This document shows, piece after piece, positions 1 through 16,948 of a stretch of DNA of 16,948 bases. A model generated the notes under the pieces. That model was given only the letters and a program-made list of their open reading frames with translations, was not told where the DNA came from and made no database searches. The translations under genes and the position numbers were made by a program. Source of the DNA: a virus. Position 1 is the first letter of the stretch. Every line of letters begins with the position of its first letter. Location: IMG/VR virus record IMGVR_UViG_3300045988_115596; one strand, given 5' to 3'.

Positions 1-342
1 GGTTTCATCGGCGGCATAGGCGACTGGATAGCCGAACATAAGGGACCTATCAGCTACGACCGCAAGTTGTTGATACCGCATGGCAAGGCCATTATGAGCG
101 GCCTTGCGCAAGGCATAGACGCGGGCTTCAACGGCAAGGTGCGCGCCTCCATAGGCGCTGTGAACGCGGCCATGTCCGACACAGGGTTTCGTGTGAGCGT
201 AGCGGGGGCGGCTCAAACGGGTGGCGTCGTCTACAACACCTATGAGGTGCATATCGACGGCGCGATAAGCGACCCGGACGGCGCGGCCAAGGCCATTGAA
301 CGGCTGCTTGCCGGCCACGCTCGGAGACGGGGCCGCAGATGA
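1..342 (+). CDS. Tape measure protein, C-terminal part (continues the ORF that runs off the 3' end of the window)
   Basis: Position 1 is a codon start in the frame of the ORF beginning at 15278. The translation reads [40 protein letters not shown]..., a typical actinophage TMP C-terminus. The TGA at 340-342 overlaps the next ATG (ATGA). Confidence 0.85.
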
Positions 343-1844
343 GGCAACCAATGTTGTTCATAGATCGCGGCCACGGGTGGGAGAACGTGACCGGGCATAG
401 CCACGCGCCGGCCGGCTTGGCCGGTTTCACGGTGGACTGGGGCACCGACTCGCCGGACACCCAGCCCGACCCAAGCGTGCTCCGCTTCCAGCTGCTCGAC
501 CGTACCGGCGACCTCGCCGGCAACAGCACGCGCCTTGCGGGCATGAAAGTGTTGGTTCAGTTGTCCCGCCGGCCGTTGTGGCGTGACCTCAACGACCCGA
601 CACCATGGGCCGTGCAGCCGGAAGAACTGACATGGGCCGACTTCCACCTGGCACACAAGCCGACACCGGAGGCGCAGCCCGACCCTACGGCGCTCACCAT
701 ATTCATCGGCAACGTGACCAGCGGCGGCACCATCACCCAACGCGCGGACAACACCTATATGCTCGACCTGTACGCTAACGCGCTCCAGGTGCGCATGAAC
801 CGCGCCACAGGCAAGGGGCCAACGTCATCGGACGCCAAACTGGCGGGCTTGCACTGGACCGGCACGGCCGCGCAGCGCGCGGACGAAATCAACCGGCGGC
901 TCAGCGCGCTGGGTTGCCCGCCACTGGATCCGGCGACGCTCGCATGGCTCAAGACCATGCCGCAGCCCGCCGCCTATGACAATGACTCCTACCCAGAGTT
1001 GTCCACCGTGTTATATGCGCTCGGCGCGCACCACCCGGACTTGCCCTTGTATTACGAGCGACACGGGCATGGTTCCGAATCGCTTAGCGCGGTATGGGCC
1101 GGCAGACGTGCAAGCATCACGTTGCACGCGGACGGTGCGCTGACCGTGGCGGGCGGCGGTTTGGAGCAGATCGCGGCGACCGGCGACAAAGTGACCGTGG
1201 ACGACACGACGCTGACCATCCCCGACACGGTGAGCCAAGTCAAGCTATCCACTAAGACCGTGAAATGGAACGACAACGACAACAAACTTTCGTTCGAGGC
1301 CGACGAAATCGACCTCACCGGCCAAGGGCTCTTGCCAAGCAATCTCACGGCAACCGTGGAATCGGTGTCTTTCGACTCGGACGCGGTGACGGCCAACGAG
1401 GCCGGCGACCATTGGACCGGCGGCGTATGGCAGCCCACGGCGGAGCAGCGCACACGGTGGGCGGAATGGCTCGCCGTGCAGACATTGAGGCTCAGACCGG
1501 AGAAACTGACCGCCAGCAGCCGGCATCTTGACTTGGACGTGTTCGAGCAGCAGTTGCAGCCTACCGCATCCCTGTGGGCGTTCGTAAGCACACGCTATAC
1601 GAAGCTTCTTGCGGACGACGGGACGCCGGCCACCAGTGGCGCGTGGCTCGCCATCGGCGGCACGTTGTCGTTCGACTGGCAGGCTGGCGACCCCGTCCTG
1701 GCCAACGAACTCACGCTGACCCCGTTGCCAATGCTGCCTAGCACGTTGAGCGCTTGGCGGGACTTGGACCCCATAAACCTCAAATGGAGCGAACTTGGCT
1801 TCACTTGGGGCGAGTTCTCGCAGATCACCTACTTCCAAGATTAA
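339..1844 (+). CDS. Minor tail protein in the distal-tail (Dit) position, 501 aa
   Basis: The start is ATGA-coupled to the TMP stop and the ORF has GC-rich third codon positions. It is the first gene after the tape measure. No catalytic motif was recognised, so the function is inferred from position only. Confidence 0.7.
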
Positions 1845-1853
1845 GGAGATATT

Positions 1854-3074
1854 ATGTCTGACTTCAACGCGGCGAACATGCCGACCACGCCACGCCACGG
1901 CATCCGCTACCCCGGCCCCACCGACCTGGTGCGCCACGCCTCACAGCAGTTCAAGGCAATGGCCGAGAGCATCGACGACAATATCGACAAACTGCCAGCC
2001 CAGATCACGGCACGTGTGGACGACGCGGCCACACGAGCCGCCGCCAGCGCCACCGCGGCGCAGCAGGCCGCCGCCTCGGCCGGCACCCTGGCCGACCAGA
2101 ACATGGCCGCGAACATCAACAACACGTCATCTCAGACCGCCGCCGCAATGGACAAATGGAGGAACGCCGGAAACCGGTGGCATAACGCCGTCATCATCGG
2201 CGACAGCCTATGCAAGGGCTACTATTCCGGCGCGGAGCACGCCGGACAGGGCATCGGCGACGTGATTTGCAAGAACTTGGGCATCGACACCGTGCAGAAC
2301 ATGGCCGTATCCGGCAGCGGCTTCACCGTCGGCGGCGACAACACGTTTGTGCAGCAGTGGAATCGTGTTTCAAACAAAAAAAACGTGGACCTTGTGCTTG
2401 TCATCGGCGGCGTGAACGACAACAACACCGATTGCAGCGCGGCCGTCACGCAATTGCTGAACTCCATCAATCAGTACGCGCCGAACGCCACCACATACGT
2501 GTTCCCAGTCGCCGGCGGCCGAGGCATGGGATTGCATGAGCACATCACCGCGCTCCACACCATCTCGCTCGCCACAATCTCGCAAACGACGACCAAGAAC
2601 CAGCGCGTGGTGCTCATGCAAGGCGTACATAGGTGGGGGCAGATGATCGGCGATGACGAGGCAGACGGTTACATCCACATGAAGCAGGCCGGATACCAGA
2701 AATGGGCATCGATCGCCACACGCCTGATGCTCAACGGTCAGAACACGTTCTGGCCGAACTTCAGCCGCGACCTATCAGTGAACAATCCAAGCGGCGACGC
2801 TTTGTTCGACCAGATTCAGCGCGCGCGCATCGTGGAATCGAACGGCACCATCACCCTGCAGATCACCGCGCACACGAAACGAGCAATCGACTCCGGCTAT
2901 ACCGTCTTCAAAAAAGACAACTACTTCATGAGCAACATCCAGGGCAAATTCATCGGCCTCAACGTCAACGGGTGCGCGATCAGCGTCGAAACCGGAGGAA
3001 TCAAAATGCAGATGGCGCAATTCACGAGAGATCGATGGATGCTTGTCGAGACCAGTTGGACAGCCGGAATGTGA
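1854..3074 (+). CDS. Tail fibre / receptor-binding protein with central SGNH (GDSL) hydrolase domain, 406 aa
   Basis: AAGGAG (1843-1848) lies 5 nt before the ATG. The N-terminus (GIRYPGPTDLV...SIDDNIDKL) is followed by an Ala-rich coiled segment, as in actinophage minor tail or fibre proteins. SGNH-like blocks are IIGDSLCKG, SGSGFTVGG, VIGGVNDNN and DGYIHMKQAGYQKWA. The last ~100 aa look beta-rich. Confidence 0.75.
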   Translation: MSDFNAANMPTTPRHGIRYPGPTDLVRHASQQFKAMAESIDDNIDKLPAQITARVDDAATRAAASATAAQQAAASAGTLADQNMAANINNTSSQTAAAMDKWRNAGNRWHNAVIIGDSLCKGYYSGAEHAGQGIGDVICKNLGIDTVQNMAVSGSGFTVGGDNTFVQQWNRVSNKKNVDLVLVIGGVNDNNTDCSAAVTQLLNSINQYAPNATTYVFPVAGGRGMGLHEHITALHTISLATISQTTTKNQRVVLMQGVHRWGQMIGDDEADGYIHMKQAGYQKWASIATRLMLNGQNTFWPNFSRDLSVNNPSGDALFDQIQRARIVESNGTITLQITAHTKRAIDSGYTVFKKDNYFMSNIQGKFIGLNVNGCAISVETGGIKMQMAQFTRDRWMLVETSWTAGM

Positions 3075-3081
3075 GGACGGA

Positions 3082-3396
3082 ATGGACACGGAATTATTAA
3101 CGCTTGTGGTCGCTTTCATCGGCTCCGGCGCGGCGACGAGCATCGTGCAATGTGCATTGGCCCGCGCCGACCGCGACACACCGATCAAGGAAGGTGTGCG
3201 GGTGCTCCTGTTCTGCAAGCTGGAGCACATACAGGCAGCAATGGCGGCTAACGGCGGCGTGTGCGACGTGGAAAACAAGCAGACCGCCGAGAAGATTTAC
3301 CGCGCATACCACGCGTTGGGCGGCAACGGCGTCGGCACGCAGATGATCGAGGACATACGAAACGCGCACATCGCGAGAACGGAGGAACAACAGTGA
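3082..3396 (+). CDS. Small membrane-anchored protein of the lysis cassette (holin or holin-accessory candidate), 104 aa
   Basis: The ORF-track start at 3043 overlaps the upstream gene, whereas ATG 3082 follows GAGGA (3073-3077). There is one N-terminal hydrophobic helix (LLTLVVAFIGSGAATSIV). The stop overlaps the endolysin GTG (GTGA). Confidence 0.55.
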   Translation: MDTELLTLVVAFIGSGAATSIVQCALARADRDTPIKEGVRVLLFCKLEHIQAAMAANGGVCDVENKQTAEKIYRAYHALGGNGVGTQMIEDIRNAHIARTEEQQ

Positions 3397-4229
3397 ACGT
3401 CAAATGGATAGGCTCTCCGAACCACTACCAGGGCCGCAACGGATACAAGGTAACACACATCACGCTGCACATCATGGCCGGCTATCTCGCCGGCACCGAC
3501 AGCGTATTCCTCAATGCGGCGTCTCAGGCAAGTGCGCATTACGGCATCGGCGGAGACGGGACGATCCACCAATACGTCGAGGAAACCGACGGCAGCTATT
3601 CAGATGCAAACTTCGCGTCAAACAACTCCACGATCAGCATCGAACATCAAGGCGGAATGGACGGCGTGCCATGCACGCAGTCGTGCATCGACGCCAGCGC
3701 ACGATTATGCGCCGACATCGCGCGACGATACGGCTGGACGCACCTATGGCACGACGGGCTGAAAGGCAACGTCTGGATGCACAGGGAGATACCGGGCACG
3801 GACCACGCAGGCTGTCCAGATCGGGCGACCAATGGCCTGCCGGTGCAACAGGTTTTGGACAAGGCAAACGAACTCTTGAAAGGTGAGGATATGCCAACAT
3901 CACAGGAAATCGCGGAAGCGGTATGGAATTTCGAGCAGAACGGCGTCAAATGCCGCGACCGACTCCAGGGCGTTGATCAGCAATGCCAGGCGATGCCTGA
4001 GAAAGTCTGGTCGTTCAGCATCAAGAACGTGCAGGCGCGAGACCGCCTTTATGGTCTGGATGCTCTGCAGATGCCGCAATTGGCCGCGACCGTGGCCGCG
4101 CAGCAGGCGGCTATCGACACTTTGGCCAAAAGCGTGGGCGCCGACCCGACGACCATCGCCAACGCGGTGGAGCAAGCCGTGAAAAACAAACTGGAATCGT
4201 TGATCATCACCGTGGGGGAAACCAAATGA
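3393..4229 (+). CDS. Endolysin, N-acetylmuramoyl-L-alanine amidase (Amidase_2/PGRP type) with uncharacterised C-terminal domain, 278 aa
   Basis: GTG 3393 follows GGAGGA (3381-3386). The upstream 44 codons of track ORF 3261 are Arg-rich out-of-context sequence. Amidase_2 signatures are present: THITLHIMAG, AHYGIGGDGTIHQYV, ISIEHQG and WMHREIPGTDHAGCPD (His/His/Cys zinc ligands). Confidence 0.88.
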   Translation: MNVKWIGSPNHYQGRNGYKVTHITLHIMAGYLAGTDSVFLNAASQASAHYGIGGDGTIHQYVEETDGSYSDANFASNNSTISIEHQGGMDGVPCTQSCIDASARLCADIARRYGWTHLWHDGLKGNVWMHREIPGTDHAGCPDRATNGLPVQQVLDKANELLKGEDMPTSQEIAEAVWNFEQNGVKCRDRLQGVDQQCQAMPEKVWSFSIKNVQARDRLYGLDALQMPQLAATVAAQQAAIDTLAKSVGADPTTIANAVEQAVKNKLESLIITVGETK

Positions 4230-4468
4230 GCGACAGCAGCAACGAGCCGCAGCACGCGGCAACCACCGAAGACGCCGGTTACAAGCCGGTGTTCAACGAC
4301 AAAGTGCGCACCGCCGTCTACATCGTCGGTCTGGTCTGCGTGATCGTAGGCACCGGCTTCACCGCCTTTGGCAATCCCGAAGTCGGCGACTGGGTAACCA
4401 CCGTCGGCGGCCTCATCGCCGCCGGCTTCGGAGTTGCCTATAATCCGCTCCGACTGGCAGGAAAATAG
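4226..4468 (+). CDS. Holin (two transmembrane segments), 80 aa
   Basis: ATGA-coupled to the endolysin stop. It has a polar N-terminus and two hydrophobic helices (VYIVGLVCVIVGTGFTAF and VTTVGGLIAAGFGVAY). The position directly after the lysin matches many actinophages. Confidence 0.7.
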   Translation: MSDSSNEPQHAATTEDAGYKPVFNDKVRTAVYIVGLVCVIVGTGFTAFGNPEVGDWVTTVGGLIAAGFGVAYNPLRLAGK

Positions 4469-4469
4469 G

Positions 4470-5300
4470 CTAGGAGCCAAGCAGCACGGCATCGAACCCG
4501 GCACGTAACCGCGTGTCGGGCATTGCTACGTAGACTTGCGTGGTCTCGACGCTCGCGTGCCCCAGCAAACGGGCTACCAGGAACAGATCATGAGTGGCCG
4601 CGTAAGTGGCCGTGGCGTACCGGTGCCTCAACGAGTGCGCCGCGTACCCGTCCGGCAGCAGATGGCTGATGTGGTCACCGATGTAGGACTCCTCGACATG
4701 GCCGCCGAACCGGCCGGGGAACAGGTAGCCGCGCGCGTCCATGACGATGGTGGCCAGATCGTCCGGCATCGGCACGATGCGCTGCTTGTCTCCCTTGCCT
4801 CGCACGATCAGCGAACGGCCGATGCTGTCGGCCACGACGTCATCGCTGTGGACGCGGGCGATCTCGCCGCGCCGCAGGCCGCACTCGGCCGCAAATCGGA
4901 TCATGAGCTTTTCCGATGGCGTGGCCTTCTCCATCGCGGCCGTAATGTACTGGTCCGGGCATGGCCGGGGATGCGCGTGGGGCTTCTTCACCCGCGGCAC
5001 GTCCAGACTCGGCTCGTCGGCTCGCCGGCCGCTTTTGTGCAGCCAACGGAAAAACGACGAAATGGTGTTCCGGTACGCCTTGCGGGTCTCCGGTTTCCAT
5101 TGTTGTCGCGCAAAGACCTGCACAATCTGCTCCGTGGTCACGTCTTCGGGACCTGATGGCATGAACAGCGCCGCGAGATGCACCATCTTGTATCGACGGC
5201 TTTTGATTGTCTGTGCTGATAGGCCGGCCGCCCTAAGGGTGTCAGTCCACCCTTCGATGCTTTTGCGCCATGGGACCGGTGCGCTGATTTTGTTCCTCAT
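4470..5300 (-). CDS. int: Tyrosine integrase (XerC/D-sized, 276 aa, no arm-binding N-domain)
   Basis: A SAM-like core-binding N-domain is followed by the catalytic signature GLRRGEI ... HSLRHRYAT ... LLGHASVETTQVYV (R, H-x-x-R, H, Y). It sits next to a tRNA-derived att site and starts 24 nt downstream of the repressor stop on the same strand. Confidence 0.92.
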   Translation of the reverse strand: MRNKISAPVPWRKSIEGWTDTLRAAGLSAQTIKSRRYKMVHLAALFMPSGPEDVTTEQIVQVFARQQWKPETRKAYRNTISSFFRWLHKSGRRADEPSLDVPRVKKPHAHPRPCPDQYITAAMEKATPSEKLMIRFAAECGLRRGEIARVHSDDVVADSIGRSLIVRGKGDKQRIVPMPDDLATIVMDARGYLFPGRFGGHVEESYIGDHISHLLPDGYAAHSLRHRYATATYAATHDLFLVARLLGHASVETTQVYVAMPDTRLRAGFDAVLLGS

Positions 5301-5324
5301 GATCCATCATGGGCATCCTGATCT

Positions 5325-5735
5325 TCACGCGGCTAAACTGAGCTTGGATAAGCTCAGAAGCCCCATGGATTTGAACCTTGGACCTCTGGTGTCCCCAGAG
5401 GTCCATGGTTCAAATCCATGCCCCGCTACTGATAGGCCGCCGTTTTCGGAATCATCCGAAGCGGCGGTTTTCTTATATCCAAGTAACTCGCCTTGCGTCA
5501 AAGACGGGTTGAGCAATGTTGCTACATCAGTATTAAGGAAATCGGCCGCTGCTTGAGTCTCATTAATAGTCCAGGTAATCTCACTACGCAGCTTCTTAGA
5601 GATAGTCTGCGGTGCAATCCCTAGAGCCTTCGCCAAATCCTTCTTCTGGATATGTCGAGCAGAGATCATCAGATTTACATTCATAGCCACTATGTCTTGA
5701 GCCTTGGCTTGAGGCTGTGCAATTACTGCTGTCAT
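5325..5735 (-). CDS. CI-like XRE-family HTH repressor with a long C-terminal extension that reads through attP and ends ...LSLAA
   Basis: The HTH reads NLMISARHIQKKDLAKALGIAPQTISKKLRSE. The ORF is open from TTG 5750; ATG 5735 (favoured, 7 nt after a TATTAT) and ATG 5684 are alternative starts. It is divergent from a Cro-like gene. The stop is TGA at 5327-5325. Confidence 0.85.
   Translation of the reverse strand: MTAVIAQPQAKAQDIVAMNVNLMISARHIQKKDLAKALGIAPQTISKKLRSEITWTINETQAAADFLNTDVATLLNPSLTQGELLGYKKTAASDDSENGGLSVAGHGFEPWTSGDTRGPRFKSMGLLSLSKLSLAA
5364..5420. repeat. Inverted repeat at attP with 26-bp arms (25/26 complementary) and a 5-nt spacer
   Basis: 5364-5389 (CATGGATTTGAACCTTGGACCTCTGG) pairs with 5395-5420 (CCAGAGGTCCATGGTTCAAATCCATG). 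The only mismatch is 5378/5406. Confidence 0.9.
5394..5428 (+). other. attP core: 3'-terminal 35 nt of a tRNA (Met-type; not a complete tRNA gene)
   Basis: CCCAG-AGGTC-CATGG-TTCAAAT-CCATG-CCCCGCT-A parses as anticodon-stem 3' strand, 5-nt variable loop, a perfect T-arm, acceptor 3' strand and discriminator. No matching 5' acceptor strand or D-arm lies upstream. From memory, CCC at positions 39-41, AGGTC, the TTCAAAT loop and CCCCGC resemble tRNA-Met/fMet. Confidence 0.75.
5437..5474 (+). terminator. Intrinsic terminator downstream of the tRNA 3' fragment (phage-borne replacement terminator for the target tRNA)
   Basis: CCGCCG(tt)TTCGGA-atca-TCCGAA(g)CGGCGG forms a 12-13 bp stem followed by TTTTCTT. 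It lies 9 nt after the tRNA discriminator base and inside the repressor ORF on the opposite strand. Confidence 0.7.
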
Positions 5736-5779
5736 AGCTTCATAATACAACGTAGTTTTATTTTTCTAGGCGTGTCGAA

Positions 5780-5817
5780 TTGACATCGTCACGATTTATA
5801 CGATATGACTATCGTAT
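5780..5817 (+). promoter_or_regulatory. Candidate early lytic promoter and operators of the genetic switch
   Basis: A perfect TTGACA (5780-5785) is followed by 18 nt and TATGAC (5804-5809), which places the transcription start near the A of ATG 5816. Palindromes sharing ACGAT/ATCGT half-sites are ATCGTcACGAT (5785-5795) and ATACGATAtgacTATCGTAT (5798-5817). Confidence 0.45.
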
Positions 5818-6058
5818 GGTTTTAGTCGAATCGCATGGCGATACTTCAGCGCGAGTCCGGAAGCTCATCCGCAAGAATCGCCTCACACAAAAGGACGTAG
5901 CCGCCGAAATTGGCATCAGTCAGCAACTCTTCACCAACAAACTTCACGGCCGAGCAAATTACACGCTCCGAGACCTCAGCCGCATCGCCGAGTTCTTCGA
6001 CGTGAGCCTTGATTACCTCGTCGGCCGTTCAAACGAGCAGAAAGGAAACAAGCGATGA
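5816..6058 (+). CDS. Cro-like XRE-family HTH regulator, 80 aa
   Basis: The HTH reads LTQKDVAAEIGISQQLFTNKLHGRANYTLRDLSRIAEFF. The track start at 5780 is a TTG that forms part of a consensus -35 hexamer. ATG 5816 is in frame and has no SD, so the mRNA is possibly leaderless. Confidence 0.8.
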   Translation: MVLVESHGDTSARVRKLIRKNRLTQKDVAAEIGISQQLFTNKLHGRANYTLRDLSRIAEFFDVSLDYLVGRSNEQKGNKR

Positions 6059-6594
6059 TGATCCATGATGCTGCCGGCTCCATTGTCGTGGTCTCGGCCG
6101 AATCCGTGAAGATGGCTGGCGAGGGTTGCATTGTCATTAACGCCCGCGCCGTCTACGTCCACAATCAATCTTTGACTTCTGGCCAAGCTGCGATCATCAA
6201 GCACGGCATCGCGACCATACTTGACGATCCTGAGGCTTTAGAAAAGCTGAAGCGGGAGCACGGCATCTCCGGCGTCGATTTGCCACCACGGCACAGCACT
6301 GGGGTTGATGGTGATGGCATGGATGCTCATATCGGGGAATCTGACCGTTTGGACAAAACTCCTGTCGGAACGCAGCCGCTCAGTGAGCTCGCCGACCGTT
6401 GCGGCTGTGGCTCCTGTCACGGTCAACGGCGTGGTCGTTCCCAGGTAAAGAACGAAGTTGAACGTTGCTTCGTCGCTCATTGTTCTTCCTTCCTTCGTTG
6501 TTTGAAAGGTTTGGTTTGTTGTGCGATTACAAGCCTATCGCTGCGGAGGAAGGAGCCTACCCGTCCATCCATGAATCAAGGAGCAGTGAAATGA
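6055..6594 (+). CDS. Hypothetical protein; only the first ~60 codons look coding, and the 3' part is probably a spurious read-through
   Basis: ATGA-coupled to the cro stop, and 6055 to about 6240 has reasonable codon bias. From 6238 it overlaps a better-supported minus-strand gene, then crosses a T-rich intergenic stretch giving a Cys/Arg-rich translation. Confidence 0.3.
   Translation: MMIHDAAGSIVVVSAESVKMAGEGCIVINARAVYVHNQSLTSGQAAIIKHGIATILDDPEALEKLKREHGISGVDLPPRHSTGVDGDGMDAHIGESDRLDKTPVGTQPLSELADRCGCGSCHGQRRGRSQVKNEVERCFVAHCSSFLRCLKGLVCCAITSLSLRRKEPTRPSMNQGAVK
6238..6480 (-). CDS. Hypothetical protein, 80 aa (minus-strand accessory or moron-like gene)
   Basis: A strong SD (GAAGGAAGGAAG) lies just upstream of the ATG at 6480. 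Third codon positions are GC-rich and the translation is balanced (MSDEATFNFVLYLGTTTPLTVTG...). No family was recognised. Confidence 0.6.
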   Translation of the reverse strand: MSDEATFNFVLYLGTTTPLTVTGATAATVGELTERLRSDRSFVQTVRFPDMSIHAITINPSAVPWWQIDAGDAVLPLQLF

Positions 6595-6749
6595 GTGTCA
6601 CAGTCAAACGTGTGGACAGGAAAAGCAGTCAGCGTTTTTACGAGCTGATCGTTGAGACGGCAGAAGTCACCGTGCGCGTCCCGTTCAACGGTTACGAGCT
6701 TGACGATCTTGAGAAACAGATCGACCGATGCTTCAACGAGGAGGATTGA
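6591..6749 (+). CDS. Hypothetical small protein, 52 aa
   Basis: AAGGAG (6578-6583) lies 7 nt before ATG 6591. The 42 upstream codons of track ORF 6465 cross intergenic-looking sequence. The translation is MSVTVKRVDRKSSQRFYELIVETAEVTVRVPFNGYELDDLEKQIDRCFNEED. Confidence 0.6.
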   Translation: MSVTVKRVDRKSSQRFYELIVETAEVTVRVPFNGYELDDLEKQIDRCFNEED

Positions 6750-6751
6750 CC

Positions 6752-6868
6752 GTGAAACGTTTCATCAAGTTCGCTCTTCTGATTCTGCTCAGCCCCTTCG
6801 TGTTGCTCATGCTGGGGCTGGCGCTCTCGATCGTCCTTCTGGACGATTTCCTCAACGACGACAACTGA
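6752..6868 (+). CDS. Small single-pass membrane peptide, 38 aa (below the ORF-track length cut-off)
   Basis: AGGAGGA (6739-6745) lies 6 nt before GTG 6752. The translation is (M)KRFIKFALLILLSPFVLLMLGLALSIVLLDDFLNDDN: a basic N-terminus, a ~24-residue hydrophobic helix and an acidic C-terminus. The stop is TGA 6866-6868. Confidence 0.55.
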   Translation: MKRFIKFALLILLSPFVLLMLGLALSIVLLDDFLNDDN

Positions 6869-7255
6869 CGGCATCCGATAACTTCATAGCCCTTGACCCA
6901 GCCGAAGGTCGGTTGCTGGTGAGGCGTGATAAAGCACCCGGCCGCGCCTTGCCCAGCGCGTTACAAACACGCCCGGAATGCCGGGCGGTTACCACGGCCC
7001 CAGCGGGGAGCTATGCGGGTGTATACAGATCGCTTCACAGCGTCTTGTTCGGGCGCAACTGGGGACCATCGCCGGCATACGTGCCGGGCTGTGCGGCGAG
7101 ACCTTGCGCGCTGCTTCGGCAGCTGACCTATGCGACGGCGCGGCTCCGTTACGAAGCAACCTTGCATGGCGAACCCTAACCCGGAAAACACTTGAGCAAT
7201 CTTGTGTTTTCCGAGCTAGGTTCCCCGCTCTAACGCCCCACCACCCGAAGGGCAC

Positions 7256-7309
7256 ATCATCCACAATTCTTATCCACTTATCCACAGTTCTTATCCACTT
7301 ACCCACAAT
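7256..7309 (+). promoter_or_regulatory. Cluster of five same-orientation DnaA-box-like 9-mers, including a 21-bp tandem duplication
   Basis: The 9-mers are TCATCCACA (7257), TTATCCACT (7270), TTATCCACA (7278, a perfect consensus), TTATCCACT (7291) and TTACCCACA (7299). The units ttcttatccacttatccacag (7267-7287) and ttcttatccacttacccacaa (7288-7308) are 19/21 identical. Confidence 0.6.
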
Positions 7310-7328
7310 ATGAAACGAGGTTCGAGAC

Positions 7329-7670
7329 ATGGGTTATTCGGTTGATTACAAGCCAACACGCCGACGTGCCAAGAGGACGGTGCCGAAGAACAAGGCCCAG
7401 CGCACGAAGGACATCAAGAACGCCATTCGATGGAATATCAGGCAATTGGAGCATGACACTGATGGAGCGGACACCATTGCGCGTTCCCTTGCCATCAGTC
7501 TGCTTCGACTGAACAAGATCGCACCGACGGCCGACCCTAGCGGCGACCATGTGATGCAGCAGCTTATCAGCGACGGTATCTTGGGCAAGCCCGAGAGGCG
7601 CGGCAGTGTGCAGATTTTCGACCGTGCCGAGTTATTGACATCGCTCAAGGCTTGGGTTGGTGTGCTGTGA
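7329..7670 (+). CDS. Hypothetical basic protein, 113 aa (first gene after the DnaA-box cluster)
   Basis: ACGAGG lies 8 nt before the ATG. The N-terminus is Lys/Arg-rich (KPTRRRAKRTVPKNKAQRTKDIKN). The stop overlaps the next gene's GTG (GTGA). No family was recognised. Confidence 0.65.
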   Translation: MGYSVDYKPTRRRAKRTVPKNKAQRTKDIKNAIRWNIRQLEHDTDGADTIARSLAISLLRLNKIAPTADPSGDHVMQQLISDGILGKPERRGSVQIFDRAELLTSLKAWVGVL

Positions 7671-7876
7671 ACCCACGTGCGAAGCTCACGGCCAAACAGG
7701 CGGCCCTATATCTGGGCGTGAGTGAAAGCCTGTTGCGCAAGTGGCGCGGCGAACATTACGGCCCGGTGTTCTACCGGCCCACGGACGCTCCCAACTGCCC
7801 AGTGCTGTATGAGTTGTCGGACTTGGACATGTTCGTAGCGCAGCGCAAGCGCAAGGCGGCCCAGAGTGCCGCGTAG
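7667..7876 (+). CDS. xis: Excisionase / MerR-like HTH DNA-binding protein (Xis family), 69 aa
   Basis: LTAKQAALYLGVSESLLRKWRGEHYGPVFYR...YELSDLDMFV is a typical Xis/AlpA-type helix-turn-helix. GTG 7667 (GTGA coupling) is preferred over the track's TTG at 7652. Confidence 0.7.
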   Translation: MNPRAKLTAKQAALYLGVSESLLRKWRGEHYGPVFYRPTDAPNCPVLYELSDLDMFVAQRKRKAAQSAA

Positions 7877-8588
7877 GCAAGTAGTCGCCCCGTCAATCCG
7901 TTCGGCCGAGATAGCGGCGTGGGGCAACGACTGTTGGTTGGAGCTGCCCGGCTGCACGAAAGTGGGCACCGAAGACGACCATATAGTGCCACATGCGCAT
8001 GGCGGCAAGGACACCGTGCCGAACCTACGCCGCGCGTGCAAGCATTGCAACGCTTCGCGGCAAGACCGCGTGCTGTATGGCTATGGCTGCCGCTTGCACA
8101 TGATCGTATGCCCGCCTGGCTCATGCGACCGGGAGGCCGTGGACTACATAGCCCAGCACGCGAAGCCAACTGACCCGGTTGTGTCGTGGGCTTCGCTGGC
8201 CGCCGCCATGCGCGTGGACGAAGCGGACATGGAGCAGCGGCGGGCCGTGGCTATGGCATGGTCTGCCGCCTACCGCCAGTTCGCCAAGAGCCGCGCGCCG
8301 TTGGACGTGTGGCTGGTGCGCACCATACCAGCCAGCCGCAAGCACCCGCAGATGCTGGCCGAGTGGATAGCGCTGGACTACGACATACAGGTGCTAGACC
8401 CCGGCTACGCCGAGAGCATGGCACGGGCACGTAACGACATGTACCGGCAGCTGGTGCGCCAGTGGTACGCCCTCCACCTGTCGCAAGAGACGATAGACGC
8501 GAGGCAAGCGGCCCGCCGCCAGCGACTCGCGGCCCTTGGCTTGCGTTCCATGCCATCTTCGGTGCCTTCATCGCGCCCGGAATGGTGA
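7866..8588 (+). CDS. HNH endonuclease fused to a ~165-aa C-terminal domain with a degenerate P-loop-like motif, 240 aa
   Basis: The HNH/zinc motif is CWLELPGC...DDHIVPHAHGGKDTVPNLRRACKHCN. The gene lies directly upstream of terS/terL, as in HNH-dependent cos phages. The C-terminal part begins HMIVCPPGSCDRE, resembling a Walker-A GPPGSGKS with the Lys-Ser lost. Confidence 0.8.
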   Translation: MPRRQVVAPSIRSAEIAAWGNDCWLELPGCTKVGTEDDHIVPHAHGGKDTVPNLRRACKHCNASRQDRVLYGYGCRLHMIVCPPGSCDREAVDYIAQHAKPTDPVVSWASLAAAMRVDEADMEQRRAVAMAWSAAYRQFAKSRAPLDVWLVRTIPASRKHPQMLAEWIALDYDIQVLDPGYAESMARARNDMYRQLVRQWYALHLSQETIDARQAARRQRLAALGLRSMPSSVPSSRPEW

Positions 8589-8602
8589 TTTTTTAAACTC
8601 GC

Positions 8603-8636
8603 GGCGCCGGGAAAGACCCCGCGCCCAGTTTTTTCT
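8603..8636 (+). terminator. Intrinsic terminator-like hairpin after the HNH gene (early/late boundary)
   Basis: GGCG(c)CGGG-aaagac-CCCGCGCC forms 8 G:C pairs with one bulge, followed by AG and TTTTTTCT. Confidence 0.55.
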
Positions 8637-8663
8637 CCCCCCAACACGGGAGGAAAAACTGGG
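8624..8663. repeat. 16-bp inverted repeat in the HNH-terS intergenic region (cos or regulatory candidate)
   Basis: CCCAGTTTTTTCTCCC (8624-8639) pairs with GGGAGGAAAAACTGGG (8648-8663), giving 15 Watson-Crick pairs plus one G:T and an 8-nt loop. It shares the T-tract and 3 nt with the preceding terminator hairpin. Confidence 0.8.
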
Positions 8664-8705
8664 CGAAAACGTTGGAATATCAAGGAAAAGAAAGGATACG
8701 GAGAA

Positions 8706-9020
8706 ATGAGCCAAAACACGTTCGACATTTTCGACGATACCGCCGGCCGGCACGTCGGGCAACAGGAAAAGGCCACGCGGCAGCTGATCGAGAGCCTTAC
8801 CGAGCGTTCGGGCGGCGAACTAGACCCATTCGCCACCACGCTATGCGCCAGCCTGTTGTCCCTTGCCCAGAACATCGACACACAGCGCAACGCCGGCAAG
8901 GAGATCAGCCGCAACATGAACACCTATCTGGATAACGTTCAGCGCCTTCAGGACATGTACCCGCCGGAACCGAAGGTGGACGAAGACGTGGCCGCCTATC
9001 TGGCCGAGGCGAAGGCATGA
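8706..9020 (+). CDS. terS: Terminase small subunit (by position), 104 aa
   Basis: It is the first gene after the HNH gene and intergenic hairpins, and its stop is ATGA-coupled to the large terminase. The protein is small, acidic and helical. No motif-level proof. Confidence 0.55.
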   Translation: MSQNTFDIFDDTAGRHVGQQEKATRQLIESLTERSGGELDPFATTLCASLLSLAQNIDTQRNAGKEISRNMNTYLDNVQRLQDMYPPEPKVDEDVAAYLAEAKA

Positions 9021-10471
9021 CCACGCCGCCGAGTATGCGGGCCGGCACGCGCCGCGACCCCTCGCGCCGCACCGACGGCGGCGTGGTGGCGAAGACCGCC
9101 GAACTATTGGGCAAACCGTTGTTGCCGTGGCAACGCTACGTGGCCGACGTGGCCGGCGAGATCGACGAAACGACGGGAACGTATCGGTACGACACCATCG
9201 TGCTTACCACGCCGCGCCAGTGCGGCAAGTCCACGCTGATAGACACCGAGGACACGCGCAATGCCCAGTTGGGCAAAGATAGGAAGATTTACTATTTGGC
9301 GCAGACGGGCAAGGACGCCGAACAGCATTTCAAGGACTATGTGAAGCAATTGCACTCTAGCCGGCTTGGCCCGCTGGCCCTGAAGCCGCGTCTGAGCAAC
9401 GGTGGCATGGAACAGCGGTTCGCCAACGACAGCTTCATACGTCCTTTGGCCGTCACGAAGGTGGCGGGCCACGGCGTGCAGATGGACAAGTTCACTTTGG
9501 ACGAGGCTTTTAGCCTTACCGAAGAGGCCGGCTATATGATCTTGGACGGCTTGGGGCCGACCATGAACACCCGTTTGCGCTTCACCGGCGTGCAACCACA
9601 GATGTGGATTACATCGACCGAAGGCACGGCCGCTTCGACGTTCTTCAACAGCCTGTTGGACGGCTTGCGCGCCGGCGACGTGCCCGAACGCACGGCGTGG
9701 TTCGACTTCGGCTTGCCCGACGACGAAGACCCCGAAGACCTCAAGGCCGTGGCACGCTGGCACCCGGCCGCCGGCCTGTTGTGGGACTTGTGCCAGTTGG
9801 CCGACTTCCGCCAGCAGTTCGGGGACAACAAGGCCGGTTGGGCGCGAGCCTTCGCCAACCGGCGCGACGTGGGCATAGCCGAGCGCGTCATAAACGCCGA
9901 CCTATGGGACGCCACCGCTTGCGAGCCGATAGCGCCCGGCGACTTGGCCGGCCGGCCGGTGGTGTTCGGCGCTGCCGTGGACGTGGACGCCACCCACACG
10001 GCGATTAGCGCCGGCATCAAGGAACACGACGGCACGGTAACGGTCCAGTTGCTCAAGGTGTTGGACGGCACCGGCGCGGCACCCGGCGAGATCACCAGAC
10101 TGTGCGCCACCTACGACGCGCCCTTGTGTATGGACTCGCGCGGCCCGAACGGCGACTTGTGCGACCGATTGCAAGCGCTGGCCGACATCAACGGCGACCC
10201 CGCTGTGCGTTTCGTGGACATGCAAGCCGGCGACTTCCTCAGCGTGGGCCAAGCGTTCGTGAGCGGTCTTGAGAACGGCACCGTCCGCCATGCCGCCGAC
10301 GCTGAATTGGACGCCAGCGCGGCGAACAGCGCGCGCACATGGAGCGGCGACGCTTGGCGCGTGTCAAGGCGCGGCAGCACCGGCCAGACTTCGCCGCTGG
10401 AAAGCGCCATGCTTGCCGCGTGGGGCGTCTCGCACCGGCCCGAACCCGAAGGGCCGTTGCAAATATTCTGA
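9017..10471 (+). CDS. terL: Terminase large subunit, 484 aa
   Basis: The Walker A-like motif is VLTTPRQCGKSTL. Size and position (between terS and portal) are typical of HK97-type TerL. Confidence 0.88.
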   Translation: MTTPPSMRAGTRRDPSRRTDGGVVAKTAELLGKPLLPWQRYVADVAGEIDETTGTYRYDTIVLTTPRQCGKSTLIDTEDTRNAQLGKDRKIYYLAQTGKDAEQHFKDYVKQLHSSRLGPLALKPRLSNGGMEQRFANDSFIRPLAVTKVAGHGVQMDKFTLDEAFSLTEEAGYMILDGLGPTMNTRLRFTGVQPQMWITSTEGTAASTFFNSLLDGLRAGDVPERTAWFDFGLPDDEDPEDLKAVARWHPAAGLLWDLCQLADFRQQFGDNKAGWARAFANRRDVGIAERVINADLWDATACEPIAPGDLAGRPVVFGAAVDVDATHTAISAGIKEHDGTVTVQLLKVLDGTGAAPGEITRLCATYDAPLCMDSRGPNGDLCDRLQALADINGDPAVRFVDMQAGDFLSVGQAFVSGLENGTVRHAADAELDASAANSARTWSGDAWRVSRRGSTGQTSPLESAMLAAWGVSHRPEPEGPLQIF

Positions 10472-15288: not shown

Positions 15289-16948
15289 CGCGATAATGTC
15301 CGTGAGAATCACGGGCAACAGCGACGACGCCGTGAAGGCGTTCCAGAAGGCCACCACGAAGGCGGCGGCGTTCGGTTCGTTCATGGGCGGCGCTGCCCTC
15401 AAGGGCGTTACCGCCCTATGGGACAAGGTAAGTTCGTTCGGCAGCGCCGTGATGGACATGAGCGACAGCACGGACAAGTTCGTTTCGACGATGAACTTCG
15501 CCGGCATCGACACCGCCAACGTCGAAAAGGCAAGCAAGGCGGCGCGCGACTACGCGGACCGCACAGTGTATGATCTGTCCACCATCCAGAACACCACGGC
15601 GCAGCTCGCCGCGAACGGCATCAAGGACTACACCGGCCTTACAGAGGCCGCCGGCAACCTGAACGCCGTGGCCGGCGGCAACGCCGACACCTTCGGCTCC
15701 GTGGCCATGGTGCTCACCCAGACGGCCGGCGCGGGCAAGTTGACGACGGAGAACTGGAACCAGTTGGCCGACGCCATCCCCGGCGCGTCCGGCAAGCTCC
15801 AGGAAGCCATGAAGGCCAACGGCGCGTACACGGGCAATTTCAGGGACGCGATGGAGAAAGGCGAGATCAGCGCCGACGAGTTCAACCAGGCGATTATGCA
15901 GCTCGGCATGAGCGACGTCGCCAAGGAAGCCGCAAGCAGCACCAAGACCATGGAAGGCGCTTTGGGCAACTTGGAGGCCGCGATCACCGGCGGGCTGACG
16001 GACGCGTTCAACCTCATAAAGCCAGCGGTCACGGGCGCGTTGACCGAAGCCGGAGACCGTATCAGCCAGTTCAGCCAAACCGCCACCAACGGTTTGAAGT
16101 CGTTCATCCAGGGCGTGAGCGACACGGGCGCGTTCCAATCGCTCTCAGGCATGGTGTCAGGCATCGGCGGCGCGTTGTCCTCGTTGGGCGGCGCGTTCTC
16201 GAGCATCGCCGCGACGATAGCGCCGGGCTTGCAAGGCCTGTCCGACGCGGGCGGCATCGGGACGGCCGTGGGCGAGGCGTTCACCGGCGCGGCCGGGATC
16301 ATCCAGGCGTTGGCGGACAAACTCACCCAGTTTGGCGATTGGGTCAGCGCGAACGCGGAACCCATCAGCGGCGCTCTTGTGGCCATCGGCGGCGGTTTCG
16401 CCGCGTTCAAGGTGGCAAGCGTCATCAGCGCCGTGGTATCCGCGTTGCAGGGCTTCAGCCTGGCGTCCACCGCCGCGTCAATCGGACAATGGGCGTTGAA
16501 CGCGGCCATGAACGCCAACCCGATAATGATCGTGGTCACGGCCATTGGCGCGCTGGTGGCGGCGTTGGTGTGGTTCTTCACTCAGACCGAGACGGGCCGG
16601 CAGATTTGGAGCCAGTTCACCGCGTTTCTGGGCAATTGCGTGAACAGCATCATCGCGTTCTTCCAGTCGTTGCCGGGCCGTATCGGCGCGTTCTTCCAAA
16701 ACGCAGCCGACGGCGCAAGGAACACGTGGAACAGCGTCGTGGATTGGTTCAGGGGATTGCCGGGCCGTATCCTCAACGCTCTGGGTGACGTCGGTTCCAT
16801 CCTTGTGAACGCCGGTTCGAGCATCATTGACGGTTTTCTCTCAGGTCTCAAGGGCGCTTGGGGCAAAGTGACGGGTTTCATCGGCGGCATAGGCGACTGG
16901 ATAGCCGAACATAAGGGACCTATCAGCTACGACCGCAAGTTGTTGATA
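15278..16948 (+). CDS. Tape measure protein, N-terminal 557 codons (open at the window end; continues at 76-342 for about 645 aa in total)
   Basis: GGAGGAGG lies upstream of ATG 15278. The TMP core reads [26 protein letters not shown]...[39 protein letters not shown]. It has Ala/Gly-rich repeats and hydrophobic segments ([20 protein letters not shown]). I read no stop through 16948. Confidence 0.88.
16874..16948 (+). repeat. 75-bp terminal duplication of window bases 1-75 (circular-contig overlap)
   Basis: ggtttcatcggcggcataggcgactgg...cgcaagttgttgata is identical at both ends. It lies inside, and in frame with, the TMP coding sequence. Confidence 0.95.

What the first reader, a model, noticed from the sequence alone, without database searches (positions are those of the whole stretch)
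7256..7309. Array of five DnaA-box-like 9-mers with 21-bp periodicity just upstream of the first post-switch operon gene
Seen: TCATCCACA, TTATCCACT, TTATCCACA, TTATCCACT and TTACCCACA all lie on the same strand, starting at 7257, 7270, 7278, 7291 and 7299. The spacing is 13/8/13/8, which corresponds to a tandemly duplicated 21-bp double-box unit. One 9-mer is the exact TTATCCACA consensus. The array ends 20 nt before the ATG of the 113-aa basic protein.

Established: TTATCCACA-type 9-mers are the DnaA recognition element. Clustered, helically phased boxes are characteristic of oriC and of DnaA-dependent plasmid or phage origins and promoters.

Inference: in a phage with no replication genes, this is the best candidate for a host-DnaA-dependent origin. 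It could alternatively be a DnaA-controlled promoter coupling lytic gene expression to host replication status. The repeats could also be iterons for the adjacent basic protein rather than DnaA sites.
Basis: partly seen in the sequence, partly recalled or inferred. Interest (0 to 1): 0.65.

Follow-up and report, generated by a model that had tools for sequence, protein, structure and literature searches.

The report
DnaA boxes ahead of phage late genes
A small Bifidobacterium prophage carries a real, evolutionarily conserved cluster of binding sites for the host replication initiator DnaA, wedged between a previously undescribed large structured RNA and its DNA-packaging genes; the cluster looks more like an optional control site than a replication origin.

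Summary

**Context.** The window is the circular (attP) form of a known ~17-kb Bifidobacterium prophage family that integrates at tRNA-Met next to metA.

**Are they DnaA boxes?** Comparative data support this.
- The same three-box module, with box starts 13 and 8 bp apart and always on the same strand, recurs in three deep clades whose surrounding spacers cannot be aligned.
- The box variants match those predicted in the B. longum oriC.
- Box presence does not track any neighbouring phage DNA-binding protein.

**Is it an origin?** The evidence weakens this reading.
- 35 of 87 unique relatives lack boxes yet keep intact packaging and head genes.
- No box cluster occurs elsewhere in any relative.
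- Copy number drifts from about 2 to 6 among near-identical phages.
- No AT-rich unwinding element or DnaA-trio adjoins the array.
- Three small actinophages with related terminases have no box cluster.

**Where it sits.** The array fills the gap between the 3' end of a ~375-nt, strongly covarying, plus-strand structured RNA and the ribosome-binding site of the first late gene. That RNA is absent from Rfam.

**Favoured reading.** It is a host-DnaA control site in the leader of the late operon. DnaA binding and its effect are inferred, not shown.

The parts
7257..7265 (+). Box 1, TCATCCACA (1 mismatch to TTATCCACA). It corresponds to conserved 'box A' of the module.
   Evidence: The homologous box in other clades is TTATCCACA, TCGTCCACA or TTTTCCACA.
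7270..7278 (+). Box 2, TTATCCACT ('box B'). Its last base is the first base of box 3.
   Evidence: The 13-bp offset from box 1 is conserved in L124, L123, L101, L131 and L070.
7278..7286 (+). Box 3, TTATCCACA, the exact consensus ('box C').
   Evidence: The 8-bp-phased doublet TTATCCACTTATCCACA also occurs in about 37 unrelated viral contigs, often inside larger box clusters.
7291..7299 (+). Box 4, TTATCCACT. It belongs to the duplicated 21-bp unit.
   Evidence: It is absent from many near-identical relatives that carry only 2-4 boxes.
7299..7307 (+). Box 5, TTACCCACA. This is B. longum oriC 'type D'.
   Evidence: The type list comes from PMC2430713.
6877..7251 (+). Conserved ~375-nt structured RNA element (leader or ncRNA) that ends 5 nt before box 1. 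Invariant blocks include CAGCGCGTTACAAACAC (6954-6970), GGTTCCCCGCTCTAAC (7219-7234) and CACCACCCGAAGG (7239-7251).
   Evidence: The alignment covers 22 lineages. RNAalifold predicts 58 pairs, 34 of them with compensatory changes. 93.4% of cells are paired against 37-49% in slid controls, and 0 of 500 shuffles reach the observed values. There are 115 G-U cells against 11 A-C cells, which points to the + strand. The single-sequence z-score is -3.0. Rfam gives no real match.
7312..7320 (+). Ribosome-binding region GAAACGAGG of the first late gene, beginning 5 nt after box 5.
   Evidence: It is conserved in most lineages, and AAACGAG is enriched in the k-mer test. As RNA, 7252-7345 is less structured than shuffles, with z = +1.87.
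7329..7670 (+). 113-aa 'MGY' protein. It has a disordered arginine/lysine-rich N-terminal tail, a long helix and a winged-helix-like C-terminal domain. Its function is unknown, and it always follows the RNA element.
   Evidence: Pfam and PHROGs give no hit. The only homologues are Bifidobacterium hypothetical proteins. The AF2 model has pLDDT 79.6. Foldseek hits are weak (E >= 0.27) and mostly winged-helix proteins.
7652..7876 (+). Small HTH_17 (excisionase/MerR-like) DNA-binding protein.
   Evidence: Pfam PF12728 at E = 8e-5, below the curated cut-off. PHROGs 'excisionase and transcriptional regulator'. Its recognition-helix type does not track box presence.
7866..8588 (+). Packaging-type HNH endonuclease.
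   Evidence: Pfam HNH at 6e-8. In Gordonia phage Emperor, whose large terminase is related, the cohesive ends lie inside the 3' end of this gene.
8589..8705 (+). HNH-TerS gap, the expected cos neighbourhood by analogy with Emperor. This places cos about 1.3 kb from the array.
   Evidence: It is the joint third-lowest-GC 60-bp window. The assignment is an inference.
8706..10471 (+). Candidate small terminase (104 aa) and large terminase (484 aa). Portal and a protease-capsid fusion follow.
   Evidence: PHROGs terminase large subunit at 8e-33. Pfam portal and Peptidase_S78 + capsid.
5395..5431 (+). attP core, the 3' end of tRNA-Met. It lies inside the 3' end of the minus-strand repressor gene (5325-5750), the arrangement of integration-dependent immunity.
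   Evidence: Homology with prophage junctions starts at 5394. The core matches the published att core with 2 mismatches (PMC6109161).

Best explanation
The array is a cluster of binding sites for the host initiator protein DnaA. It sits in the transcribed leader of the phage's late (packaging/head) operon. Upstream it abuts the 3' end of a ~375-nt structured leader RNA. Downstream, its last box ends 21-24 nt from the start codon of the first late gene.

Proposed mechanism (inferred). DnaA, probably in its ATP form, oligomerises head-to-tail on the 3-5 same-strand boxes. It then acts as a reversible, orientation-dependent barrier or modulator for RNA polymerase entering the late operon. Expression of the packaging genes would thereby be coupled to the host's DnaA and replication status.

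The site is an accessory module. It can expand, contract or be lost without destroying the phage.

Shown here: motif identity, conservation, geometry, position and dispensability. Inferred: DnaA binding, and the sign and mechanism of the effect.
For: **Identity of the boxes**
- There is one exact consensus and four 1-mismatch boxes.
- The variants here and in relatives (TTATCCACA, TTACCCACA, TTGTCCAC-, TTTTCCACA) are the types predicted for the B. longum oriC.
- Anchoring only on T[CT]CAC in the spacers of 22 lineages gives upstream flanks of T 22/27, T 19/27 and A 22/27, and a downstream base of A in 17 and T in 7 of 27.

**Selection**
- A box A-N4-box B-box C module with starts 13 and 8 bp apart recurs in three deep clades of the family. 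Their inter-box and flanking sequences differ.
- Box 7-mers are the most enriched words in the spacers.
- Density is 10.6 per kb in the spacer zone against 0.22 per kb elsewhere.

**Host rather than phage reader**
- Near-identical HTH_17 proteins occur with boxes (L033) and without (L032, L114). Three different HTH_17 types occur with boxes.
- The putative recognition helix of the MGY protein is identical in the window (5 boxes) and L032 (0 boxes).
- The inverted repeat in the cI/cro intergenic region (candidate operator) is of the TACGATA type, not box-like.

**A natural DnaA arrangement**
- The overlapping doublet recurs inside larger DnaA-box clusters in unrelated contigs.

**Regulatory position**
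- The distance to the end of the RNA element and to the RBS/ATG is fixed.
- The strand is fixed relative to transcription.
- The plus-strand structured leader lies directly upstream.

**Accessory nature**
- Near-identical phages carry about 2 to 6 boxes.
- 35 of 87 loci have none, yet keep intact late genes.

**Precedents from my own knowledge**
- DnaA acts as a transcription factor and as an orientation-dependent transcription block in E. coli.
- Mycobacteriophage L5 'stoperators' are orientation-dependent roadblocks in actinophage intergenic regions.
Against: - No experiment or data set shows DnaA binding here.
- No promoter was found at or near the array. The consensus scan found none in 5200-9100, but it also missed the cro promoter, so it is insensitive for this host.
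- DnaA roadblocks in leaders are rare and poorly documented.
- An 8-bp start-to-start spacing means adjacent 9-mers overlap, and simultaneous occupancy is untested.
- About five box-less lineages carry other short direct repeats at the same place. The spacer may therefore be prone to slippage, or may serve as a platform for other factors.
- The region is also selected to be unstructured as RNA. This could explain part of its C/A-rich, G-poor composition without any DNA-binding protein.
Confidence: 0.4

Rival explanations
1. **Host-DnaA-dependent replication origin, or helicase-loading site.** The phage encodes no replication protein. DnaA bound at the array would recruit the host helicase. Transcription of the upstream structured RNA might help by opening or priming the DNA.
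For: - No replication gene is recognisable in the 16.9-kb genome. Mavrich et al. likewise say most genes of the family relate to structure and assembly.
- The array is the only DnaA-box cluster in the genome.
- It is the second most AT-rich 60-bp stretch.
- It lies between the early and late modules.
- From my own knowledge, a single DnaA box downstream of the RNA II-primed origin of pBR322 serves DnaA-dependent helicase loading and is dispensable. That would tolerate the patchy distribution seen here.
Against: - 35 of 87 relatives lack boxes and have no box cluster elsewhere, yet keep intact late genes.
- No DnaA-trio run follows the array. A genuine oriC-like cluster found in the same scan (L176) shows boxes, a GC spacer and CTA/TAG trios for comparison.
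- Beyond the boxes themselves there is no AT-rich stretch. Flanks reach 57-65% GC.
- Emperor, RRH1 and Maggie have no box cluster.
- Family member Bb423phi2 showed no copy-number rise after induction.
- Box number drifts from about 2 to 6.
- The RNA strand is C-rich at its 3' end, which is unfavourable for a persistent R-loop (inference).
Confidence: 0.25
2. **No DNA-level function.** On this reading the spacer is simply an unstructured, C/A-rich 5' leader that evolves by replication slippage. The resemblance of the repeat unit to a DnaA box would then be coincidental, or the motif would be read at the RNA level.
For: - All lineages have G-poor spacers here.
- The array plus RBS folds worse than 197 of 200 shuffles.
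- Copy number varies by 8- and 13-nt units among near-identical phages.
- About five box-less lineages have other short direct repeats at the same place.
- Strict same-strand orientation is what an RNA motif would show.
Against: - Slippage explains copy number. It does not explain why the same 9-mer family, with the same 13/8 geometry, persists in three deep clades while everything around it changed.
- It also does not explain why the un-anchored flanks reproduce the DnaA consensus.
- It does not explain why the variants are the host oriC types.
- No complementary partner for UUAUCCACA was found in the element that tracks box presence. This was checked by inspection. The UGUGG hairpin loop exists with and without boxes and is absent in the window.
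Confidence: 0.15
3. **Iterons or operators for a phage-encoded protein.** Candidates are the adjacent 113-aa basic winged-helix-like protein, the HTH_17 protein, or the immunity repressor acting as a stoperator-type silencer.
For: - The 113-aa protein has a basic tail and a winged-helix-like fold, and it is encoded immediately downstream.
- An HTH_17 protein follows it.
- From my own knowledge, direct repeats in one orientation are typical of Xis/Cox-type and stoperator sites.
- Some box-less lineages have their own repeats in the same spot.
Against: - There is no covariation. Identical putative recognition helices occur with and without boxes, and different ones occur with boxes.
- The motif does not occur in the cI/cro intergenic region of the same phage, where the candidate operator (an inverted repeat) is of the TACGATA type.
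- The repeats of box-less lineages do not recur consistently elsewhere in their loci, including the early region.
Confidence: 0.08
4. **cosB-like terminase-binding repeats next to a cos site,** as in lambda cosN/cosB.
For: - The repeats lie upstream of the packaging genes.
- A conserved sequence (GGTTCCCCGCTCTAAC) followed by variable repeats superficially resembles conserved cosN plus phage-specific cosB.
Against: - The conserved sequence is part of a covarying RNA helix. GAACC at 7171-7175 pairs with GGTTC at 7219-7223.
- In the related cos phage Emperor, the ends lie inside the 3' end of the HNH gene, just before TerS. By analogy cos is near 8500-8700, about 1.3 kb away.
- The ends of IMG/VR contigs do not coincide with this site.
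Confidence: 0.03

Closest known systems
DnaA-box clusters outside oriC that regulate or titrate DnaA (E. coli dnaA promoter, datA, DARS; B. subtilis DnaA-box clusters)
   Same: Several consensus or near-consensus 9-mers lie within about 50 bp in an intergenic or leader position. They are not associated with an unwinding element. Copy number is comparable (3-5).
   Different: This cluster is on a phage, in the leader of a late operon and directly after a large structured RNA. All boxes are on one strand, with overlapping 8-bp-phased doublets. No promoter overlap was found, and binding is untested.
DnaA boxes on phages and plasmids (lambda pR-downstream sites, P1 oriR, the pBR322 box downstream of the RNA II origin, the phage T5 injection-stop region)
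   Same: Host DnaA sites are embedded in a mobile element's noncoding DNA. In T5 they are conserved across relatives yet lie away from the replication origin (bioRxiv 10.1101/866236). In pBR322 the box follows a structured primer RNA and is dispensable (my own knowledge).
   Different: No initiator gene or iterons accompany the boxes, unlike P1. T5 boxes come in pairs separated by 3 bp inside inverted repeats. The pBR322 box has the opposite orientation relative to the RNA (my own knowledge). None of these sits 21 nt before a late-gene start codon.
Chromosomal oriC of Bifidobacterium longum
   Same: It uses the same box types: TTATCCACA, TTACCCACA, TTGTCCACA and TTTTCCACA (PMC2430713).
   Different: The phage array has no dnaA/dnaN neighbourhood, no multi-cluster organisation, and no AT-rich unwinding region or DnaA-trios. 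It has only 3-5 boxes on a single strand.
Mycobacteriophage L5 stoperators
   Same: Both are short asymmetric sites in intergenic regions of an actinophage, in one orientation relative to transcription. In L5 they stop elongation into downstream genes (my own knowledge).
   Different: L5 sites bind the phage's own repressor and are scattered about 30 times over the genome. Here the motif is the host DnaA box, occurs at one locus only, and is unrelated to this phage's candidate operator.
Lambda nutL-N arrangement
   Same: The order is the same: leader RNA element, then a small protein with an arginine-rich N-terminus, then downstream operon.
   Different: The RNA is about 375 nt with many helices, not a 15-nt boxB hairpin. 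The protein has a winged-helix-like domain. No homology or antitermination evidence exists. This is an analogy only.

Membership tests
DnaA-box cluster (DnaA-binding site array) | 9-mers matching TTATCCACA / TT(A/T)TNCACA | tested here: met
   There is one exact and four 1-mismatch matches. The family-wide flanks around TCCAC reproduce TTA...A.
DnaA-box cluster (DnaA-binding site array) | Boxes correspond to those used by the host's own DnaA at oriC | tested here: met
   The hosts are Bifidobacterium. The predicted B. longum oriC box types A-D include all variants seen (PMC2430713). This check relies on the literature list, because the host oriC sequence was not re-read here.
DnaA-box cluster (DnaA-binding site array) | Conservation of the sites under divergence of the surrounding sequence | tested here: met
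   The module with 13/8 spacing is present in three deep clades. It is absent from the other clades.
DnaA-box cluster (DnaA-binding site array) | Physical binding of DnaA | not testable with these tools
   This needs EMSA, footprinting or ChIP.
DnaA-dependent replication origin (oriC-type or plasmid-type) | Adjacent AT-rich DNA unwinding element and/or DnaA-trio run next to the terminal box | tested here: not met
   Downstream of the array come the RBS and coding DNA (ATATGAAACGAGGTTCGAGACATGGG...). Upstream is the GC-rich RNA element. There are no in-phase CTA/TAG repeats. L176 serves as a positive example of trios.
DnaA-dependent replication origin (oriC-type or plasmid-type) | Indispensable and therefore present in all functional relatives | tested here: not met
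   35 of 87 unique loci have no box, and there is no other cluster in 672 kb of family sequence. Box-less lineages have full-length TerL, portal and capsid.
DnaA-dependent replication origin (oriC-type or plasmid-type) | Supports autonomous replication / is the site of initiation | not testable with these tools
   This needs a plasmid replication assay or marker-frequency analysis. The only published hint is that Bb423phi2 did not amplify on induction.
Iterons/operators of a phage-encoded DNA-binding protein | Site sequence co-varies with the recognition element of the cognate protein | tested here: not met
   Types of the HTH_17, MGY and cro-like proteins do not track box presence.
Lambda-type cosB (terminase small-subunit binding repeats) | Immediately adjacent to the cohesive-end cleavage site | tested here: inconclusive
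   By analogy with Emperor, cos lies at the HNH 3' end / TerS gap, about 1.3 kb away. Virion ends of this phage are unknown.

The most novel reading that the evidence does not exclude
The ~375-nt structured plus-strand RNA and the DnaA-box module directly behind it may together form a protein-free, host-only replication start for a tailed phage that encodes no replication protein. The RNA would open or prime the DNA, in the manner of ColE1 RNA II or by transcriptional activation. DnaA on the boxes would then load the host helicase. Box-less relatives would use a DnaA-independent loading route.
Probability: 0.12. Interest if true: 0.85.

Novelty: new member of a known kind. Interest (0 to 1): 0.55.

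Why it matters
If DnaA really binds here, a gut-commensal prophage would be reading the host's replication-initiation state directly. It would do so through the host's own initiator rather than through a phage-encoded sensor, and at the entry to its packaging genes. That would be a compact way to time late gene expression or to silence the prophage.

It would also add a Gram-positive, high-GC example to the few known phage uses of DnaA boxes away from origins.

The family is very common in human gut Bifidobacterium. It shows natural variants with 0 to 6 boxes, which form a ready-made allelic series for experiments.

The adjacent, apparently undescribed large structured RNA may be the more important object. 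It is conserved in every family locus recovered and gives the array its context.

Tried and rejected
- **cos/cosB idea.** Rejected. The 'conserved cosN-like' sequence is part of a covarying RNA helix. The related cos phage Emperor has its ends inside the HNH gene 3' end.
- **Phage-protein iterons.** I compared HTH_17, MGY and cro-like sequences across lineages with and without boxes and found no covariation. I also looked for the motif in the cI/cro intergenic region and found none.
- **Known RNA family for the upstream element.** Rfam gathering and E-value scans of the window and of seven other loci gave nothing real.
- **Sequence homology of the element to the small actinophages Emperor, RRH1 and Maggie.** nhmmer gave only E > 4 noise. 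A by-eye resemblance in Emperor (GGTGTTCCGCTCGCAACCACCCACCCGA) is therefore not claimed.
- **Similar DNA in the phage database.** No match. tblastn with the 113-aa protein found nothing.
- **PDB sequence search for the 113-aa and 179-aa proteins.** Nothing significant.
- **Idea that boxes substitute for the terminator-like hairpin inside the element.** The hairpin is a long A-tract/U-tract helix in all lineages, with no clean anticorrelation. Dropped.
- **Gene context of unrelated DnaA-box clusters.** Heterogeneous and uninformative.
- **Literature.** Searches for DnaA with bifidoprophages, or for this RNA, found nothing.

Full report
**Observation**

- A scan for TTATCCACA with at most 1 mismatch finds 8 sites in the window. 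Shuffles give 1.6 on average, and 0 of 200 reach 8. Five of the sites lie in these 51 bp.
- Tandem Repeats Finder calls a 21-bp period with 2.4 copies.
- The array ends 21 nt before the ATG at 7329.
- The copies arose by duplication, so the shuffle statistic overstates independence. The decisive evidence is comparative and follows below.

**What the window is**

Gene content:
- tail, lipase and amidase genes at 339-4468;
- a tyrosine integrase at 4470-5300 (-);
- a cI-like repressor at 5325-5750 (-);
- a cro-like gene at 5780-6058;
- three small unknown ORFs;
- a 460-nt noncoding stretch at 6869-7328;
- a 113-aa protein;
- an HTH_17 protein;
- an HNH endonuclease;
- a 104-aa candidate small terminase;
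- large terminase, portal, a protease-capsid fusion and connectors.

Other features of the window:
- It has a 75-bp exact terminal overlap, so it is a circular assembly of 16,873 unique bp.
- In metagenomic contigs the same element is a prophage next to metA and the atp operon. Homology begins at window position 5394.
- Positions 5395-5431 match the published tRNA-Met att core.
- Relatives in isolate genomes are all Bifidobacterium.

This is the known ~18-kb tRNA-Met/metA bifidoprophage family (Bl-1, 689b-1, Bb423phi2). The attP site lies inside the repressor gene, which is the integration-dependent immunity arrangement. One member did not amplify after mitomycin C (PMC6109161).

**The array in relatives**

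Among near-identical phages the array has roughly 2 to 6 boxes, differing by 8-nt and 13-nt units.

A search with an invariant 17-mer of the upstream noncoding element recovered 86 viral loci. Together with the loci already held, they gave 83 unique sequences.

In 8-9 of 22 lineage representatives the spacer between that element and the ribosome-binding site carries DnaA-like boxes.
- The boxes are always on the + strand.
- They share a conserved architecture: box A, 4 nt, box B, box C, with starts 13 and 8 bp apart.
- The inter-box and flanking sequences differ between lineages. Examples are TTATCCACAtcatTAATCCACATATCCACA in L124 and TCGTCCACAatcgTTGTCCACTTATCCACA in L131.
- These lineages fall in three separate deep clades of a tree built on the upstream element.

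An unbiased k-mer test ranks TTATCCA, ATCCACA, TCCACAA and TATCCAC first. Each occurs in 8 of 22 lineages against 0.02-0.04 expected.

Anchoring only on T[CT]CAC, the free flanks are T 22/27, T 19/27 and A 22/27 upstream. The downstream base is A in 17 and T in 7 of 27.

Box density is 10.6 per kb in the spacer zone against 0.22 per kb in 672 kb of other family sequence. No second cluster occurs anywhere.

The variants seen are the types listed for the B. longum oriC (PMC2430713).

The overlapping doublet TTATCCACTTATCCACA also occurs in about 37 unrelated viral contigs. There it often lies inside larger same-strand box clusters next to AT-rich DNA. The odd 8-bp phasing is therefore a natural DnaA-box arrangement.

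**Who reads the boxes**

No neighbouring phage protein co-varies with box presence.
- L033 (boxes) has nearly the same HTH_17 protein as L032 and L114 (no boxes). Box-bearing lineages carry at least three different HTH_17 recognition helices.
- The 113-aa protein is modelled with a disordered basic tail, a long helix and a winged-helix-like domain (pLDDT 79.6). Foldseek hits are weak (E >= 0.27) and mostly winged-helix proteins.
- The putative recognition helix of that protein is GDHVMQQLIS in both the window (5 boxes) and L032 (none). It is GDNTFQQLIA in box-bearing L033 and L040.
- The inverted repeat in the phage's cI/cro intergenic region (candidate operator) is of the TACGATA type.

A conserved host factor is therefore the simplest reader. 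I rate the DnaA-site identity at about 0.7.

**Context: a structured RNA**

The stretch 6877-7251 is the best-conserved DNA of the family. It has long invariant blocks separated by hairpins that covary.
- RNAalifold predicts 58 pairs, 34 of them with compensatory changes.
- 93.4% of cells are paired against 37-49% when partners are slid by 1-3 columns. The covariation score is 0.427 against at most 0.10, and 0 of 500 shuffles reach the observed values.
- There are 115 G-U cells against 11 A-C cells, which places the structure on the + strand, the same sense as the late genes.
- The sequence GGTTCCCCGC pairs with GAACC at 7171-7175 and, in invariant predicted pairs, with GCGGG.
- Rfam has no match, and literature searches found no description.

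Box A begins 5 nt after this element ends. The last box ends 21-24 nt before the start codon in every box-bearing lineage. As RNA, the array plus RBS is unusually unstructured, with z = +1.87.

**Origin or control site**

Evidence against an origin:
- 35 of 87 unique loci lack boxes. Box-less lineages keep full-length terminase, portal and capsid genes.
- There is no DnaA-trio run. Beyond the boxes there is no AT-rich stretch, and flanks reach 57-65% GC. A genuine oriC-like cluster with trios turned up in the same scan for comparison (L176).
- Emperor, RRH1 and Maggie, three small actinophages with related terminases, have no box cluster.
- Box number is unstable.

Evidence for an origin:
- No replication genes are recognisable.
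- This is the only box cluster in the genome.
- It is the second-lowest-GC stretch.
- A dispensable DnaA box follows an RNA-primed origin in pBR322 (my own knowledge).

The fixed position in the late-operon leader, the fixed strand and the gain/loss pattern fit an accessory regulatory site better. I therefore favour a DnaA-dependent modulator or roadblock at the entrance to the late operon, with confidence 0.4. The origin or helicase-loading reading gets 0.25.

The cos alternative is unlikely. In Emperor the cohesive ends lie inside the HNH 3' end, just before TerS. The equivalent position here is about 8500-8700.

**Unexplained**

About five box-less lineages carry other 8-10-nt direct repeats in the same spacer.

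Many box-less lineages instead have a conserved GAAGG-N4-5-ATGAAA. This opens an upstream ORF or an in-frame N-terminal extension of the 113-aa protein.

The spacer may therefore be a general regulatory platform, of which the DnaA-box module is one version.

**Verdict**
- The DnaA-box identity is well supported by comparative evidence.
- A control-site role is favoured but unproven.
- The array is a new member of a known kind.
- The neighbouring RNA is the more novel object.

Noticed in passing
window 6877-7251 (+): A ~375-nt noncoding element is conserved in every family locus recovered. It has strong covariation: 58 predicted pairs, 34 with compensatory changes, and 93% of cells paired against 37-49% in slid controls. 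G-U pairs favour the + strand. It has no Rfam match and I found no description in the literature. It always precedes the 113-aa 'MGY' gene. It is probably a new large structured leader or ncRNA of Bifidobacterium prophages.
   Followed up: partly
window 6877-6888: The element begins with a near-invariant (G/C/A)ATAA(C/T)-N3-4-A, read as GATAAC, GATAAT or CATAAT. This looks like a -10 box followed by a start site, so the RNA may have its own promoter. No -35 was seen.
   Followed up: no
window 7329-7670 (+): The 113-aa protein has an arginine/lysine-rich disordered N-terminus (PTRRRAKRTVPKNKAQRTK...IRWN), reminiscent of the arginine-rich RNA-binding motifs of lambdoid N proteins. It also has a winged-helix-like domain. 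It may bind the upstream RNA, in an arrangement like nutL-N. This is an analogy only.
   Followed up: partly
window 1-75 and 16874-16948: There is an exact 75-bp terminal overlap. The window is therefore a circular assembly of 16,873 unique bp in the attP (excised) configuration, so this prophage family is seen outside the chromosome in at least one sample.
   Followed up: yes
window 5336-5431: ARAGORN's 94-nt 'tRNA-Gln' is not a gene. It is the att core (the tRNA-Met 3' end, 5395-5431) plus an inverted partial copy of it (5364-5389) separated by 5 nt. The core lies inside the 3' end of the minus-strand repressor ORF, as in integration-dependent immunity.
   Followed up: yes
relatives L028, L044/L058, L054, L061, L118 (same spacer position as window 7252-7311): These box-less lineages carry other short direct repeats at the same place. 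Examples are ACAGACCRAC x2 spaced 13 bp, ATCAATC(A/G)GA x2 spaced 12 bp and CATCGAACA x2 spaced 10 bp. The repeats do not recur consistently elsewhere in their loci.
   Followed up: partly
relatives L056, L057, L114, L034, L103 (position equivalent to window ~7247-7260): These box-less lineages share GAAGG-N4-5-ATGAAA directly after the RNA element. This gives an in-frame N-terminal extension of the MGY protein in L056, L057 and L114. In L034 it gives an 18-codon upstream ORF that ends 4 nt before the main ATG.
   Followed up: no
window 8589-8705: The HNH-TerS gap contains T-runs and a GC-rich inverted repeat (CGCGGCGCCGGGAAAGACCCCGCGCCC), and it is AT-rich at 8672. It is the likely cos region by analogy with Gordonia phage Emperor, whose cohesive ends lie within the HNH gene 3' end.
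   Followed up: partly
L176 7020-7130 and L168 (unrelated 66%-GC viral contigs from the same gut data set): This is an oriC-like cluster. It has DnaA boxes in both orientations, the TTATCCACTTATCCACA doublet, a GC spacer and a CTACTATCTACTACCTAG run that resembles DnaA-trios. It may be a phage or plasmid origin, or a mis-binned chromosomal oriC.
   Followed up: no
window 6055-6749 versus loci L001, L028, L033, L034: The early region between cro and the RNA element is mosaic. The 179-aa ORF of the window is replaced by unrelated small ORFs in relatives. In several otherwise identical prophages an 80-aa minus-strand ORF is called there instead.
   Followed up: no
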